Positions 13,046-17,048 are shown, counted from the first letter of the stretch. The stretch: DNA of 64,000 nucleotides from a bacterium (GCA_038146805.1 JAYQSH010000003.1:48519-112518), one strand, 5' to 3'. The notes: generated by a model not told the origin, from the sequence alone. Numbers and translations: made by a program.

Positions 13046-14233
13046 ATGGGTTCAACAACAAGACCAACAATCAAAACAAACAATAATGCTCTATTAGAAT
13101 GTCAAAGTCAAATTAAAGGTAAGCCAACGCAGGCAACAGTAGCAACTGTCGCTAGCACAGCTGAAACAACTACACCAGTTGTAAATAGATTTAGTGATGA
13201 TTATGTACCTAGTGAAGAATATCAACAAGGTCTTCAAGGTTTTGTTGATCAAGAAGCTGCTACTTATAGAAGCACTAAACACCTTGGCACTCTAGCTGAG
13301 CTTGGATCTGCTGGTGAGTACTACGATAGCGAGCTTGCAAAAGTAGAACAAAACTATGTTAATTTCTGGATTAATAATTTTAACAATAAAAGCCAAAGCT
13401 TAAGAGATGTAATCTTCTCAACCCATGAACACTCACTCAGAACAGGTAACACTAACAATCATATGATTGCTCTTCGAAATATTTTAAGAGGTGTAAATTT
13501 ACTTGATCCTAGTATCCAAGGAAAAACAATTGCTGAAGTAAACAGCGATGGTCAGTTAACAGGAAATAAAATCAGCTTAGTTGATTTTGCAAATAGAGCA
13601 ATTAACGATGAAGCATTTTTAGCTAGACATATAGATAGTCAAGGTTTAGATTCTGCTTTAACTCTAGCGGCAAGAGCTTATTTAAATGATGACAGTTTTA
13701 AAGCTAGAGCTACTTATAATAGAGAATACAGTGGCTTTGGTGACAGAGCTGCTTCAATTGCAGGTGGAACAGCTATTGCAGCAGCCACTGCGTACGGAGC
13801 GGGTGCTGTTATTTCTGGAGTGGGAATGGCTTATGGTGCTGGTGCAGCTGTCTTAGCCGCTGAGGGTGCGTCTATTGGTCTGTTTGCAGGAGGTATTGGA
13901 GCAGCAGTTACTACTGGCTCAGCTGCTGCTGCTGGAACAACAGTTGCAGCCGGAACAGCTGGTTTCACTTTAGCAGGTGGTGCATCAGGAATTATTGGCG
14001 GTGTAGTAGGTGGCTTAGTTGCAGCTGGTCCTATAGGTTGGGCAATACTTGGAGTCGGTGCCCTAATTGGTGCAGCAGTTATCGGAAGAGGTATCTGGGA
14101 TGCAGGTAAATATATGCTTTCAGGTAGAAATGACCAACCAACCATTAGTAAAGATGGCTTAGGTGCATGGATAGGTTATGGATTAAACAACATACTACAA
14201 GGTTGTGGAGTTTTCCCAAGTAATAACGCATAA
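13046..14233 (+). CDS. membrane protein with ~110-aa Gly/Ala-rich glycine-zipper hydrophobic domain (translocator/pore-former-like; tentative)
   Basis: Hydrophilic N-terminal 230 aa, then GGTAIAAATAYGAGAVISGVGMAYGAGAAVLAAEGASIGLFAGGIGAAV...GGLVAAGPIGWAILGVGALIGAAVIG. Confidence 0.65.
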   Translation: MGSTTRPTIKTNNNALLECQSQIKGKPTQATVATVASTAETTTPVVNRFSDDYVPSEEYQQGLQGFVDQEAATYRSTKHLGTLAELGSAGEYYDSELAKVEQNYVNFWINNFNNKSQSLRDVIFSTHEHSLRTGNTNNHMIALRNILRGVNLLDPSIQGKTIAEVNSDGQLTGNKISLVDFANRAINDEAFLARHIDSQGLDSALTLAARAYLNDDSFKARATYNREYSGFGDRAASIAGGTAIAAATAYGAGAVISGVGMAYGAGAAVLAAEGASIGLFAGGIGAAVTTGSAAAAGTTVAAGTAGFTLAGGASGIIGGVVGGLVAAGPIGWAILGVGALIGAAVIGRGIWDAGKYMLSGRNDQPTISKDGLGAWIGYGLNNILQGCGVFPSNNA

Positions 14234-14242
14234 GGAGTAAAG

Positions 14243-14965
14243 ATGTCAGAAGTAAGTACTAAAACAAGCTTTGGCGAAAGATTCGTAGCAGGAGCTGCAA
14301 AACATACCGCTGAAGGTGGAAAACTTAGCCGAGCAAATATACTCAAGAGTATTCAAGAAGGTAGCGGCGAGTTTTTAGGTAAGGCTAAGGGTTTTATAAA
14401 AAACGTATTTAAATATTCATTTAATATGGATCTTTTAAAAGACGTTATGAAACAAGGTAGCAAAGCAATACCAGGACACCTCGGTCTCATTGCACTTGTT
14501 GCAGGAGCTGCTGTTTGTATTGGTGCAGTCGCTATGGCTGGTAGAACAGGATTAGAAGCAAGAAACGCGCTAAGAATGAAAGCCAATAACTTTGGTTCAG
14601 TATGGTGGTCAAGTGCACAGACTGCACTACATGGAACAACACTCGCATCTGTACTTGGTATGGGTTTATTTGCACCTGGGATTCTTGTGGCTCTACCTAT
14701 AATCCCTCTACTACCAAGCGCAACAGCACTCGTTATGGACTACGTACAAGATGTAGCGACAAACCCTAATAACTTCATTAACAAAATGGGACAGTTTGGT
14801 TTGGATAACGCGCTTGTTGAAACTAAAGCAGGTAGAAGTAGATTTGCTACCTATATGCCAAAAGCAATCTATCTTTGGGATCAACATGTCAGATCTAAAG
14901 ATGAAGATTTCGCAAGAAACTTTTTTGGAGTTGAACTTGATAGACCAGAATTAGGACTCGCATAA
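14243..14965 (+). CDS. membrane protein with two closely spaced hydrophobic helices (240 aa)
   Basis: GHLGLIALVAGAAVCIGAVAMAG ... TLASVLGMGLFAPGILVALPIIPLLP; 9-nt spacing from upstream gene. Confidence 0.6.
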   Translation: MSEVSTKTSFGERFVAGAAKHTAEGGKLSRANILKSIQEGSGEFLGKAKGFIKNVFKYSFNMDLLKDVMKQGSKAIPGHLGLIALVAGAAVCIGAVAMAGRTGLEARNALRMKANNFGSVWWSSAQTALHGTTLASVLGMGLFAPGILVALPIIPLLPSATALVMDYVQDVATNPNNFINKMGQFGLDNALVETKAGRSRFATYMPKAIYLWDQHVRSKDEDFARNFFGVELDRPELGLA

Positions 14966-14978
14966 CAAAGAAAATAAA

Positions 14979-15251
14979 ATGGTAAGAGAAGCAGTAAAAC
15001 AAAGAAGAACTGAGATCGCGACTGATACACCAGTCGCTAATTCTCATTATTTAGCTTCTCGAGGTCAAACTCAAGCTACTAATCAAATCAGAAATATTAG
15101 TACTCGGGGTAAAAAAATGCTTCATGAAGCTGTTAATAGTGGAGTTGAGATTGATAGTAAGATACAAACTGCAACTCAAGCGATAGGTAATGGAGTTAAA
15201 CAATCGGTTGAGTCCACTGGTAATATATTCTTTAATTTCATCGGAAAATAA
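14979..15251 (+). CDS. hypothetical small protein (90 aa)
   Basis: ORF in same-strand array. Confidence 0.45.
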   Translation: MVREAVKQRRTEIATDTPVANSHYLASRGQTQATNQIRNISTRGKKMLHEAVNSGVEIDSKIQTATQAIGNGVKQSVESTGNIFFNFIGK

Positions 15252-15368
15252 AAGATGGTTACAACAACTTGAATAATCCTAATAATCCTTCAAGCCCCAC
15301 AAAAACTTATTACGGGTATTATTTCAGGTAGTTTCCTTCTATTAGCAGTCAAAAGTACTTTAGACTTT

Positions 15369-15695
15369 ATGACAGGTTTATTTAATGGCAAAAAGAGGAA
15401 TAACTTATTAAAATTCGCAGATGCTTCTGTAAAGTGGGTCATAGGTCTTGGTGTCTTTGATATCTTTACTGGAAAAAGAAAAACAGGCGGTTTTACAAAC
15501 CTTAATACCGTTTTATTAGGTAGTGGTTTAAGTCTCTTTTTAAGTCAATTATCAGGGATTAATGATGGTAAACACAACACAATGCGCACACTCAGTAAGC
15601 TTACCGGTAGTGAGAAAACATTAGAAGAAGTTAGTGGGTATAGTCCACTACCAAGTTTTAGTGATTCAATGAGTAAAATCAACCCTAGAGGCTAA
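15369..15695 (+). CDS. hypothetical small protein (108 aa)
   Basis: ORF in same-strand array. Confidence 0.4.
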   Translation: MTGLFNGKKRNNLLKFADASVKWVIGLGVFDIFTGKRKTGGFTNLNTVLLGSGLSLFLSQLSGINDGKHNTMRTLSKLTGSEKTLEEVSGYSPLPSFSDSMSKINPRG

Positions 15696-15739
15696 TTTAA
15701 TATCAAATAAAGTCTCAATTTAACTTTATATAAATAGAT

Positions 15740-16174
15740 ATGTTTTGGTTATTTAAAATCGCATTCAGCAAGAAGTTAAGAGATGCTGAGAATAAAAGAA
15801 GATATAAGTTCTATTTAGAGAATTTGGTTCTACTCGACGAAATAAAAAAATTAGAGAATATGAAGAATAGTATCGATAGAGAAAAGGCTGAAGACCTCAG
15901 TATCATGTTCTTATTCAACACAAAAGAAGCGATATCAAATATCGAGAAGATCAATATCTTACTTCCATATTTATTTATTTCAGACAAGGATATCAACAAA
16001 ATGCAATCTTACTTGAAAGACGTTAAAGACCTGGTTCAGGACTTTGCAAATGGCTTTAATTTAACTTCTAGAATAGATGGTTTTTATAACAAAGATAAAA
16101 GCCAAGATAGTATTTTCAATAGAATACAACTAAACAAATTTAAACAATTAGACAGTTTTAGCTTCAGTAGATAA
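15740..16174 (+). CDS. hypothetical protein (144 aa), strongly AT-biased K/N/I/F-rich composition
   Basis: ORF; composition differs from neighbours. Confidence 0.4.
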   Translation: MFWLFKIAFSKKLRDAENKRRYKFYLENLVLLDEIKKLENMKNSIDREKAEDLSIMFLFNTKEAISNIEKINILLPYLFISDKDINKMQSYLKDVKDLVQDFANGFNLTSRIDGFYNKDKSQDSIFNRIQLNKFKQLDSFSFSR

Positions 16175-16225
16175 TTTAAATAAATCTGGTTTTCTGGGAG
16201 GACTCCAACAAAAGGAGAGAGAGGA

Positions 16226-16735
16226 ATGCCATCAATATCAATAACACCGCCGACTAAGTCTAGACCTTACGAGGCACTAAAAGAAATAGATGAACTGATA
16301 GAAACAGCTCATTTAGCATTATTTGTAAATAAAGACAATGACGCAGAAGTCTTGAATTTACAAAAACAAATTTATGCTCTTGATCAAGCTAGAGATGCAC
16401 TTGTAATTCAAAAATCGCAAAAAGAGACTGATCCTTTTGTCGCAGCTTTAAGGATAGCTTTAAATAATGATGGTGATATACCAGAAATATCAAAGCAAGA
16501 ATACAATTACCTAACAAGATCTCTACATAGAGCACCACCTCCAAGAACAGCAAGAGTATATTCTGTTAGCTGGGATGATGAACTGTTTTTTAATCCATAC
16601 AACAGTTTCAACATCATAGTACTTGAACCTACTTATAAAGCCAATTATGTAGTTAGAGAAGCTTTTGAGTTGTCTATACAAGACGGCAATATATCAAAAG
16701 AAGAAGCAGCTATCTTAAAAGATCTAGTGGGTTAG
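16226..16735 (+). CDS. hypothetical protein (169 aa) sharing the LFVNKDNDAEVLNLQ motif with the 12431..12880 product
   Basis: SD ggaggactccaacaaaaggagagagaggaATG; motif at 16327..16350. Confidence 0.55.
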   Translation: MPSISITPPTKSRPYEALKEIDELIETAHLALFVNKDNDAEVLNLQKQIYALDQARDALVIQKSQKETDPFVAALRIALNNDGDIPEISKQEYNYLTRSLHRAPPPRTARVYSVSWDDELFFNPYNSFNIIVLEPTYKANYVVREAFELSIQDGNISKEEAAILKDLVG

Positions 16736-16760
16736 CCTATATTCGGGGTGTGATTTTCTT

Positions 16761-17048
16761 TTGGGAGAGAGAATGTCAACAATTTCAGACAGTGCAGTTA
16801 ACACTGCACCTAAACAAGTCATAAGAATCAACAACAAAGGTCTAAACCTCTTACTAATGGCGCTTGCTGACGATGGGGAAATTGATGCTATTGAACTAAG
16901 ACTACTAGAAAAAATTCAAGAACTAAAAAAAAGAAAACACGAATTGGAGTTCATTGAAACTATTTTGGTAATGATTAGCCTTGGCAAAATACTGATCATC
17001 AAATTCGTAACAGCAATACCGGTAATGAACACCGAAGAAGAATCTTAA
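16761..17048 (+). CDS. hypothetical small protein (95 aa) with hydrophobic C-terminus
   Basis: ORF only. Confidence 0.4.
   Translation: MGERMSTISDSAVNTAPKQVIRINNKGLNLLLMALADDGEIDAIELRLLEKIQELKKRKHELEFIETILVMISLGKILIIKFVTAIPVMNTEEES

What the first reader, a model, noticed from the sequence alone, without database searches (positions are those of the whole stretch)
13046..17048. Translocon-like operon: glycine-zipper membrane protein, two-helix membrane protein, then five small ORFs
The gene order is a 395-aa protein with a ~110-residue Gly/Ala-rich hydrophobic domain (long GxxxG/AxxxA ladders), immediately followed by a 240-aa protein with two adjacent TM helices, then five small ORFs of 90-169 aa. 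This mirrors the major-translocator / minor-translocator / accessory-protein logic of yopB-yopD-type loci. It is also compatible with a pore-forming toxin plus immunity proteins or inclusion-membrane-type effectors. Together with the divergently transcribed small-protein operon at 10796..12880 this is the most system-like block of unknown genes in the window. The 144-aa ORF 15740..16174 stands out for extreme AT/K/N/I/F bias and may be a later insertion.
Basis: partly seen in the sequence, partly recalled or inferred. Interest (0 to 1): 0.75.

Follow-up and report, generated by a model that had tools for sequence, protein, structure and literature searches.

The report
Orphan membrane-protein gene module, Melainabacteria
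A block of about ten genes for membrane proteins and small helical proteins is real and is inherited together in a small group of non-photosynthetic relatives of cyanobacteria, but it matches no known system, and the suggested 'injection-pore' (translocon) identity could not be confirmed.

Summary
The ORFs exist as described. They belong to a larger module that keeps a fixed gene order: F<-X<-E | A->B->C->D, plus G and a 1210-aa protein next to rplU-rpmA. I found this module in every related contig that carries a relative of the 395-aa protein A. All of these contigs come from Melainabacteria (Caenarcanales-like).

Three details of the finding are wrong:
- The 90-aa and 108-aa ORFs are two pieces of one 239-aa membrane-protein gene. 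It is broken in this assembly by A-run length differences and is intact in two independent contigs.
- The AT-rich 144-aa ORF is a conserved member of the module, not an insertion.
- The GxxxG 'ladders' are no more frequent than the Gly/Ala composition predicts, and the Gly/Ala-rich domain is absent from half of the orthologues.

My best reading (about 0.4) is a resident, lineage-specific membrane complex (A/B/C) with acidic helical partners. An exported translocon-like set remains possible (about 0.2). Function is unknown, and the module is novel only by exclusion.

The parts
6330..9962 (-). 'Big' (family H). A 1210-aa acidic (pI 4.6) hydrophilic protein with no hydrophobic segment, lying directly upstream of rplU (5930-6253) and rpmA (5663-5908).
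   Evidence: Orthologues of 1253 aa (L005) and 1326 aa (L025) have the same position relative to G and rplU. No significant Pfam, PADLOC or PDB hit; one weak match to a PHROG of unknown function, E 0.0047.
10088..10729 (+). Family G (the '213-aa' ORF). A Gly/Ala-rich protein of about 180 aa in relatives. The N-terminal extension in the window may be an ORF-calling artefact.
   Evidence: Orthologues in L005, L013, L025 and L027 always lie between D and Big, or next to Big. No family hit.
10796..11522 (-). Family F. An acidic coiled-coil protein with the conserved C-terminus '...IKASEKLAASVK'. In the window it is split into ORFs 11292-11522 and 10796-11101 by a probable 1-nt indel in the T5 run (minus strand) at 11297-11301.
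   Evidence: Removing one T joins both ORFs into about 242 aa, against 254-268 aa in L025, L027 and L029. The N-terminus 'MDPISIIIKLSQL' resembles F N-termini such as 'MNFDISIFTSLSS'. The stop-to-stop ORF 10799-11302 matches the F HMM. The split is inferred; no independent contig covers this spot.
11540..11854 (-). Xb. A 104-aa acidic helical protein with the C-terminal motif 'HFFDVYQSG...WSQME'.
   Evidence: Orthologues L029:910-1215 and L001:2333-2584.
11888..12118 (-). Xa. A 76-aa acidic protein. Its RBS and first codons are an 84%-identical 45-nt copy of those of E.
   Evidence: Direct repeat D4, 12087-12131 and 12849-12893. RBS AAAGGAG. A positional counterpart of 74 aa exists in L029.
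12360..12383 (-). Intrinsic-terminator-like hairpin (10-bp stem, 6 GC pairs, T-run), 48 nt after the stop codon of E.
   Evidence: It suggests that E is transcribed in excess of the downstream genes (inference). It is not universal: in L025 and L027 the next gene follows E after 17-18 nt.
12431..12880 (-). Family E. 149 aa, with a Pro/Gly-rich disordered N-terminal half and a C-terminal helical part.
   Evidence: Orthologues lie divergent from A in L001, L005, L013, L022, L025, L027 and L029. RBS AAAGGAG. No family or PDB hit.
13046..14233 (+). Family A. 395 aa. It has an N-terminal soluble helical domain with a beta-hairpin carrying the family's best-conserved motif, 'DG.LTGNKISL'. Then comes a Gly/Ala-rich hydrophobic region (236-350) and a short conserved tail.
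   Evidence: Alignments. The AF2 model has pLDDT 74-89 for residues 100-222 and below 35 for the hydrophobic part. Only 8 relatives were found in 1.84 billion representatives. Subtype-2 orthologues replace the Gly/Ala region by two 21-23-aa uncharged segments separated by a charged amphipathic stretch.
14243..14965 (+). Family B. 240 aa, basic (pI 9.5), with two long hydrophobic segments and strongly conserved polar motifs (R..E, GN..GS.WWS.AQ, MD.FQ, QFG..N, W...IR..D).
   Evidence: Alignment A8, with 25 invariant columns in 8 sequences. B follows A in every locus that continues. No family or PDB hit.
14979..15695 (+). Family C. A single 239-aa basic membrane protein gene, broken in the window into the '90-aa' and '108-aa' ORFs by two A-run length differences (15245-15248 and 15301-15305).
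   Evidence: Both ORFs are in the same frame, with two in-frame stops between them. The gene is intact in L023 and L024. Orthologues are 234-245 aa. B and C overlap by 1-4 nt in L005, L025, L027 and L029.
15740..16174 (+). Family D. 144 aa, basic (pI 9.3), Lys/Asn/Ile-rich, with the conserved N-terminus 'MFWLFKI..KKL'.
   Evidence: Orthologues at the same position in 6 other loci, with 13 invariant columns. No hits.
16226..16735 (+). 169-aa ORF found only in the window lineage. Its residues ~19-52 are paralogous to the central helix of E ('NKDNDAEV.N.Q'). Its C-terminus carries the F-type motif 'DGNISKEEAAILKDL'.
   Evidence: phmmer of E against the 169-aa ORF gives 2e-8 to 3e-8. The E1 HMM gives 1.2e-7. 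Motif count. RBS AAAGGAGAG.
16761..17048 (+). 95-aa ORF. The real start is probably the ATG at 16773, preceded by GGGAGAGAGA. It has the motif 'DGEIDAIELRLLEKI' and a hydrophobic C-terminus (61-90). It is window-specific and its status as a gene is the least certain.
   Evidence: No orthologue in the loci held.

Best explanation
The finding is the right-hand half of a conserved, vertically inherited module of about ten genes. The module is restricted to a small clade of non-photosynthetic Melainabacteria (Caenarcanales-like).

What I propose:
- A, B and C are membrane proteins of the producing cell. Each has a large hydrophilic N-terminal part and long hydrophobic, hairpin-like segments.
- They are made in fixed proportion from one tightly packed operon, with B and C translationally coupled, and they form a hetero-oligomeric complex in the cytoplasmic membrane.
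- D is a small basic protein with a conserved amphipathic N-terminus that sits on this complex.
- The divergent operon supplies acidic, partly disordered helical partners (E, Xa/Xb, F). E is made in excess. These partners, together with G and the giant acidic protein Big, dock on or are handled by the complex.

What is shown: the gene set, its order, its conservation, the hydrophobic architecture, the charge pattern and the lack of any detectable homologue.

What is inferred: that the proteins form one complex, that they stay in the producer's membrane, and what the complex does. It could be a scaffold or anchor, or a channel for the partner proteins.
For: - Invariant order F<-X<-E | A->B->C->D, plus G and Big next to rplU-rpmA, in all loci that carry A: L001, L005, L013, L022, L023, L025-L030.
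- The chromosomal site is the same beside ribosomal protein genes in L005, L025, L029 and the window. This argues for vertical inheritance of a cell-biological apparatus, not a mobile toxin or effector cassette.
- Gaps of 9-13 nt separate A/B/C in the window. B and C overlap by 1-4 nt in relatives.
- B, C and D are basic (pI 9-10), with Lys/Arg on all hydrophilic parts. E, X, F and Big are acidic.
- B and C carry many invariant polar residues in and around the hydrophobic segments. This suggests specific interfaces rather than generic pore formation.
- No secretion machinery, ATPase or TPR chaperone lies in the module or in the 64-kb window.
- There is a terminator-like hairpin after E.
- There are no phage or defence-system matches, and the module is absent from viral contigs.
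Against: - No experiment or homology shows where any of these proteins sits.
- The N-terminal 25 residues of A, C, X, F and Big are enriched in Ser/Thr/Asn/Gln/Pro and poor in Leu (0.35-0.44 against 0.26 in housekeeping proteins of the window). None has a Sec signal. Both features also fit substrates of a non-Sec export route.
- A, E and F diverge very fast. They are 18-30% identical between genomes whose SurE is 73-76% identical. This is common for exposed or exported proteins.
- The Gly/Ala-rich hydrophobic domain of subtype-1 A proteins resembles pore-forming peptides in composition.
- AF2 gave no confident model of the membrane parts.
Confidence: 0.4

Rival explanations
1. This is an exported translocon-like or pore-forming set. 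A, B and C would be secreted without a Sec signal, for example through the flagellar type III export apparatus or an unknown route, and would insert into a target-cell membrane. E would be a polymerising filament or needle-like subunit. Xa/Xb and F would be adaptors, tip proteins or chaperones. Big would be cargo.
For: - Size and order are analogous to lcrGVH-yopBD: A is 395 aa against YopB 401 aa, followed by a smaller hydrophobic protein.
- The N-termini are polar and Leu-poor, with no Sec signal.
- A, E and F evolve fast.
- E is followed by a terminator, as major structural subunits often are.
- Several giant Pfam-less hydrophilic 'effector-like' proteins lie in the window, namely Big and the block 37235-45751.
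- Flagellar genes are reported for Caenarcaniphilales (PMC4040986).
- A relative, Vampirovibrio, is noted in that paper as parasitic (PMC4040986).
Against: - No hit to any translocator, needle or tip family in Pfam or NCBIfam.
- hhalign against SctE/B/F/A/I, LcrG/H and YscE/G/X gave at most 3.5% (the test has low power).
- There is no TPR class-II chaperone. D is basic, unlike T3SS chaperones.
- No apparatus genes lie in the window.
- The hydrophobic region of A is C-terminal, not central, and it is not conserved in architecture between subtypes.
- B and C have many invariant polar residues.
Confidence: 0.2
2. This is a pore-forming toxin or bacteriocin (A) with membrane immunity proteins (B, C) and accessory genes.
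For: - The hydrophobic domain of A in the window lineage is Gly/Ala-rich and almost uncharged.
- It is followed directly by small multi-hydrophobic-segment proteins, as in colicin or Cdz-type loci.
Against: - The locus is fixed beside rplU-rpmA, with eight or more co-conserved genes and two old subtypes. It is not sporadic or mobile.
- There is no colicin, glycine-zipper, bacteriocin or export-ABC hit.
- The Gly/Ala domain is missing from subtype 2.
- GxxxG periodicity is not above composition.
- B is the best-conserved protein of the module, whereas immunity proteins usually co-vary with their toxin.
Confidence: 0.05
3. This is a remnant of a prophage or another mobile element, or merely neighbouring unrelated orphan genes that are not one functional unit.
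For: - An IS200-type transposase lies at 4872-5591.
- A 239-nt inverted repeat (3298-3536 and 18581-18819) brackets the region, and there is a partial duplicate of the surE 5' end.
- The A-D | E-F sub-block is inverted relative to G and Big when compared with L005 and L025.
Against: - There are no significant PHROG hits and no relative in viral contigs.
- The relatives carry the same genes in the same order without the IS or the repeats.
- Tight spacing, overlaps and a shared divergent promoter region indicate co-expression.
Confidence: 0.05

Closest known systems
Type III secretion translocon operons (lcrGVH-yopBD of Yersinia; SctE/SctB with SctA tip, SctF needle and a class-II TPR chaperone)
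   Same: - A protein of about 400 aa with hydrophobic segments is followed at once by a smaller hydrophobic protein.
- Small acidic helical proteins are encoded alongside.
- There are no Sec signals.
- The N-termini are polar.
   Different: - No sequence or profile similarity.
- No TPR chaperone and no apparatus genes nearby.
- There is a third membrane protein (C) and a basic small protein (D).
- The hydrophobic part of A is C-terminal and varies between subtypes.
- The host lineage (Melainabacteria) is not known, to my knowledge, to have injectisomes.
Tripartite alpha-pore-forming toxins of the ClyA family (AhlABC, SmhABC, Nhe, Hbl)
   Same: - Three consecutive genes encode mainly helical proteins with hydrophobic membrane-inserting parts.
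- The AF2 model of the A N-domain is a helical bundle with a beta-hairpin.
   Different: - No Pfam HBL or HlyE hit.
- Foldseek against SmhB gives only E = 7 and TM 0.14.
- The beta-hairpin of A is hydrophilic, not a hydrophobic 'tongue'.
- A, B and C are not paralogues of each other (hhalign at most 0.9%).
Glycine-zipper membrane proteins and toxins (Pfam Gly-zipper families, Rick_17kDa_Anti; VacA- and CdzC/D-type zippers, from general knowledge)
   Same: A long Gly/Ala-rich, nearly uncharged segment is present in the window's A protein and in its subtype-1 relatives.
   Different: - No Pfam hit.
- GxxxG and small-xxx-small motifs are not more frequent than in shuffled sequence.
- The segment is replaced by a charged amphipathic region in subtype-2 orthologues.
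Chlamydial Inc-type proteins (long bilobed hydrophobic domains; type III substrates)
   Same: - Hydrophilic N-terminal parts are followed by hydrophobic segments of 26-52 uncharged residues, long enough for helical hairpins.
- Several such genes lie in one operon.
   Different: - No homology.
- No type III system is shown.
- There is no evidence for an intracellular lifestyle.
- Conservation and fixed synteny are much higher than is typical for Inc repertoires.

Membership tests
T3SS major/minor translocators (SctE/YopB/IpaB/SseC; SctB/YopD/IpaC) | Sequence or profile similarity to the family | tested here: not met
   No hit at E <= 0.1 to 1 in Pfam or NCBIfam for A and B of the window and of L005. 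hhalign of A against SctE gives 0.5% and B against SctB 0.1%. The hhalign test is weak, because the positive control SctF-SctI scored only 0.7%.
T3SS major/minor translocators | A dedicated class-II TPR chaperone (SycD/LcrH type) encoded beside the translocators | tested here: not met
   No TPR or chaperone family hit for any module protein. D against LcrH gives 0.1%. D is basic, pI 9.2-10.1.
T3SS major/minor translocators | A type III export apparatus (SctV, N, R, S, T, U, C, J) in the same genome | not testable with these tools
   None lies in the 64-kb window.
T3SS major/minor translocators | A fold like the solved translocator fragments (IpaB/SipB coiled coil) | tested here: inconclusive
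T3SS needle (SctF) | A protein of about 80 aa forming a helix-turn-helix, with the P-(S/D)-(D/N)-P turn and a conserved C-terminal helix | tested here: not met
   The remembered resemblance of 'NKDNDAEVANIQ' in E to 'KPDNPALLADLQ' of YscF is not supported. E against SctF gives 0.1% and the 169-aa ORF against SctF 0.6%. The motif is absent from subtype-2 E proteins. E is 102-192 aa with a disordered N-terminal half.
Glycine-zipper families | A periodic (G/A/S)xxx(G/A/S) pattern beyond composition, and/or a Pfam Gly-zipper match | tested here: not met
   Observed counts equal the shuffle expectation. No Pfam hit.
ClyA-family / tripartite alpha-pore-forming toxins | Pfam HlyE or Bacillus_HBL similarity, or a ClyA-like fold with a hydrophobic head | tested here: not met
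Pore-forming colicins with immunity protein | A colicin pore domain (PF01024) and a sporadic or mobile distribution | tested here: not met
   No Pfam hit. The locus is fixed and syntenic beside rplU-rpmA.
CW_7 peptidoglycan-binding repeat (Cpl-7) | A significant match of a single repeat | tested here: not met
   The family C profile against 5i8l_A gives E 7.5e-7, but only by summing three identical repeats of 9-10 bits each (independent E 3-9). The single repeat 4cvd_A gives E 0.99. There is no Pfam CW_7 hit for the L005 C protein.

The most novel reading that the evidence does not exclude
The module is a previously undescribed kind of protein-export or membrane-insertion apparatus of non-photosynthetic cyanobacteria, unrelated in sequence to type III systems. 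E would be a polymerising subunit. Xa/Xb and F would be adaptors. A, B and C would be the membrane-inserting pore set. The giant acidic protein Big, and perhaps the Pfam-less proteins at 37235-45751, would be cargo used on another cell such as prey, a host or a competitor.
Probability: 0.15. Interest if true: 0.8.

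Novelty: categorically new. Interest (0 to 1): 0.42.

Why it matters
Melainabacteria are the closest non-photosynthetic relatives of cyanobacteria. They are almost entirely uncultured, and their cell biology and lifestyles are inferred from genomes.

This is a co-inherited module of ten genes for three membrane proteins, several acidic helical proteins and a giant protein. 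It has no detectable relative in 1.84 billion protein clusters outside one small clade. That makes it a concrete, testable piece of lineage-specific biology.

If it is an envelope or membrane apparatus, it defines a trait of this clade. If it is an export or attack device, it would point to a predatory or host-associated lifestyle and to a new secretion principle.

The 'new' label rests on exclusion only. With shallow alignments and one partly confident model, a very divergent version of a known system cannot be ruled out.

The work also shows that this assembly carries homopolymer indels that fragment genes, which matters for any annotation of it.

Tried and rejected
1. The word-index protein search with p395 alone, with a 4-sequence profile, and with a concatenated multi-family alignment found only P0001 and P0011. 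Low-complexity words swamp the candidate list, and the concatenation trick failed.
2. A GTDB representative scan with p395 found nothing. The SurE scan gave the taxonomy and synteny instead.
3. A metagenome scan with the B family found one locus only, L022.
4. AF2 with a 2-sequence alignment was useless, with pLDDT 38. With 8 sequences only the N-domain of A was confident.
6. The needle-like motif of E, a lead from memory, is rejected.
7. GldL (E 0.1) for family E, carboxypeptidase A (E 0.5) for B and RhoGEF4 (E 0.7) for A are rejected as chance.
8. The CW_7 / Cpl-7 match of family C is rejected as a repeat-summing artefact.
9. PADLOC, PHROGs and a viral contig scan gave nothing significant.
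10. hhalign between module families found no paralogy except E with the 169-aa ORF. hhalign with these shallow alignments is insensitive: E1-E2 scored 1.6% despite orthology by synteny.
11. Literature searches for Melainabacteria or Vampirovibrionia combined with translocon or type III secretion returned nothing relevant.
12. The idea that the 169-aa and 95-aa ORFs are one frameshifted gene is rejected, because there is no continuity between the frames.

Full report
**Where the window comes from.** The window has about 34% G+C and is ordinary chromosome. It carries dxr, murB, dnaE, serS, surE, thyX, pyrB, lptF/G, rplU-rpmA and RNase P RNA.
- A scan of species-representative genomes with SurE found the nearest relatives at 71-76% identity. 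Some are MAGs labelled Candidatus Melainabacteria or Candidatus Caenarcanales. Others are labelled 'uncultured Gammaproteobacteria', but these share the same gene order and are probably mislabelled.
- The organism is therefore a non-photosynthetic relative of cyanobacteria.

**The observation.** All seven ORFs of the finding exist.
- The 395-aa protein, here called A, has a 115-residue stretch that is 57% Gly+Ala with two charged residues. The 240-aa protein, B, has two long hydrophobic segments.
- The 'GxxxG/AxxxA ladders' are not a signal beyond composition. GxxxG occurs 8 times against 7.8 in shuffles, and [GA]xxx[GA] 37 times against 35.1.
- The 90-aa and 108-aa ORFs lie in the same frame, separated by two in-frame stops.
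- Two independent metagenome contigs, L023 and L024, are 98-99% identical to the window. They carry an intact 239-aa gene (C) at this position.
- The window differs by one A fewer in the run at 15245-15248 and two fewer in the run at 15301-15305.
- In the divergent operon, the 76-aa and 101-aa ORFs join into one protein of about 242 aa (F) if the T5 run at 11297-11301 were T4. Length and N-terminus then match the F proteins of relatives.
- A methyltransferase just downstream (17045-17768) is split at a T-run in the same way.
- So this assembly carries several homopolymer indels, and part of the 'many small ORFs' picture is an artefact.

**Conservation.** A has no Pfam or NCBIfam family. It found only itself in the word-indexed 5.8-billion-protein search.
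- tblastn and ORF inspection of the SurE loci showed diverged orthologues of A, B, C and the 144-aa protein (D). The divergent small proteins are also present, in L001, L005 and L013.
- A metagenome scan added L022.
- An exhaustive HMMER search of a two-sequence A profile against 1.84 billion cluster representatives returned only 8 proteins.
- Look-ups of their contigs showed one invariant arrangement: F <- X <- E | A -> B -> C -> D, then <- G and -> Big (1253-1326 aa) -> rplU -> rpmA. None of the called genes of the module had a Pfam hit.
- HMMs of the families confirm this order in every locus that holds A. This includes fragments that were not used to build the HMMs.
- In the window, the block [E-F | A-D] is inverted relative to G-Big-rplU-rpmA.
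- Only the 169-aa and 95-aa ORFs are confined to the window lineage. The 169-aa protein shares a helix with E (phmmer 2e-8). Both carry a short 'DG.I(D/S)..E...L' motif that also occurs in F proteins.

**Anatomy.** The A proteins share an N-terminal domain.
- AF2 models it as a helical bundle with a beta-hairpin that bears the best-conserved motif, 'DG.LTGNKISL' (pLDDT 74-89, residues ~100-222). The rest of the model is unreliable.
- The A proteins fall into two subtypes that hhalign links at 97.7% through this domain.
- Subtype 1 (window, L022, L029, L030, L001) has 60-100 uncharged Gly/Ala/Thr-rich residues.
- Subtype 2 (L005, L013, L025, L027) has two 21-23-residue uncharged segments separated by a charged amphipathic stretch.
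- B is the best-conserved protein, with 25 invariant columns in 8 sequences. Many of these are polar, in or next to its two hydrophobic segments.
- C has one clear and two weaker hydrophobic segments, with conserved 'KW.MG.G' and 'SQL.G...G..N' motifs.
- B, C and D are basic (pI 9-10). E, X, F and Big are acidic.
- None has a Sec-type signal.
- Genes A, B and C are 9-13 nt apart in the window. B and C overlap by 1-4 nt in four relatives.
- E, Xa, A, B and the 169-aa ORF have strong Shine-Dalgarno sequences.
- E is followed by a 10-bp GC-rich hairpin and a T-run.

**Tests against known systems.**
- Pfam, NCBIfam, PADLOC and PHROGs gave no significant hit for any module protein of the window or of L005 and L001.
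- Profile searches of families A, B, C, D and E, and of Big alone, against all PDB sequences gave nothing credible. The match of C to the Cpl-7 cell-wall-binding module comes from summing three identical repeats of about 10 bits each.
- For a direct test of the translocon idea I fetched the Ysc-type loci of Yersinia pIB1, Aeromonas pASal5 and a Photobacterium plasmid.
- I compared small profiles of SctE, SctB, SctF, SctA, SctI, LcrG, LcrH, YscE, YscG and YscX with every module family. All probabilities were at most 3.5%.
- This test has low power. It also missed the known SctF-SctI relation and the E-subtype link. It therefore counts as a weak negative.
- No TPR chaperone, ATPase or apparatus gene is in the module or the window.
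- The module is absent from viral contigs.
- I found no literature on it.

**Interpretation.** The shown facts are:
- a fixed set of about ten co-oriented or divergent genes;
- vertical inheritance at one chromosomal site beside rplU-rpmA;
- three proteins with hydrophobic hairpin-like segments made from tightly coupled genes;
- acidic helical partners made from a divergent promoter region.

From these I infer one multi-protein assembly centred on a membrane complex of A, B and C. I judge a resident complex of the producer's own membrane most likely (about 0.4). The reasons are the housekeeping-like synteny, the basic character and invariant polar residues of B and C, and the absence of any export machinery or chaperone.

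An exported translocon-like or pore-forming set remains possible (about 0.2). In its favour:
- the N-termini are polar and Leu-poor;
- A, E and F evolve fast;
- giant Pfam-less acidic proteins are encoded nearby;
- flagellar genes, which could provide a type III export route, are reported for this order (PMC4040986).

A toxin-immunity cassette or a mobile-element remnant fits the fixed synteny poorly.

**Verdict.** The finding is a real and conserved unit, larger than described, with some ORFs mis-split by assembly errors. The translocon label is an unsupported analogy. By every test available, the module belongs to no known family or system. Its novelty is therefore by exclusion, and its function is open.

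Noticed in passing
window 11297-11301, 15245-15248, 15301-15305, 17541-17544: Four A/T homopolymer runs coincide with frame breaks that split genes: F, C (at two runs) and a class-I SAM methyltransferase at 17045-17768. The two breaks in C are proven by comparison with L023 and L024. The others are inferred from restored reading frames. The pattern suggests systematic homopolymer errors in this assembly, or less likely real phase variation or pseudogenes.
   Followed up: partly
window 3298-3536 and 18581-18819: A 239-nt inverted repeat, 98% complementary, with arms 15 kb apart. It brackets the whole module plus rplU-rpmA. Each arm holds a near-identical ORF of 58-60 aa ('MG.EISPTNDLTLSLFHCVKLTKRRC...').
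   Followed up: no
window 18262-18480 vs 19566-19783: A partial duplicate (91-94% identical) of the surE promoter and 5' end lies 1.3 kb upstream of the real surE, next to the right arm of the inverted repeat. It is likely a scar of a rearrangement.
   Followed up: no
window 4760-5635: An IS200-like Y1 transposase gene (4872-5591, Pfam Y1_Tnp) is flanked by 40-nt inverted repeats (4760-4799 and 5596-5635). It sits directly beside rpmA. It is not seen at this position in the relatives' loci that were inspected.
   Followed up: partly
window 37235-45751: A second block of large hydrophilic proteins without any Pfam hit (845, 215, 212, 541, 155 and 866 aa), all on the + strand. The 845-aa and 212-aa proteins share an N-terminal motif ('...NKSIMGD...'), suggesting paralogy. 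The 212-aa and 541-aa ORFs overlap by 146 nt and may be another frameshifted gene. Their character is similar to the giant protein Big.
   Followed up: no
window 12087-12131 vs 12849-12893: A 45-nt direct repeat (84% identical) covers the Shine-Dalgarno sequence and the first ~10 codons of both the 76-aa gene Xa and gene E ('MPTGAIQPQ' and 'MPAGTVPPP'). This points to a duplicated translation start region, or to gene conversion between neighbouring genes.
   Followed up: no
window 3555-4742 (- strand): Three further small Ser/Thr/Gln/Ala-rich ORFs (72, 133 and 139 aa). The 133- and 139-aa ORFs gave no Pfam hit; the 72-aa ORF was not scanned. They lie between the left inverted-repeat arm and the IS element. 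The family HMMs of the module do not match them.
   Followed up: partly
window 59687-61312 (- strand): A single 541-aa ORF combines a histidyl-tRNA-synthetase-like domain (HisZ type) with the HisG ATP phosphoribosyltransferase domain. This is an apparent hisZ-hisG fusion.
   Followed up: no
L002, L003, L004, L006, L007, L008: Six close relatives (SurE 71-76% identical) have no module gene in the DNA held upstream of surE (3.5-10 kb), unlike L001, L005 and L013. The module is either elsewhere in those genomes, for example beside rplU, or absent.
   Followed up: partly
family C, residues ~80-120 (window ~15216-15340; L005:5521-6234): There is a weak resemblance to the CW_7 peptidoglycan-binding repeat of Cpl-7 ('VLGGLWQKSSELMNNVADNNSDPNIVKMK' against 'VIQGLWGNGQEAYDSLANAGYDPQAVQDK'). 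It is not significant per repeat (E 1-9).
   Followed up: yes
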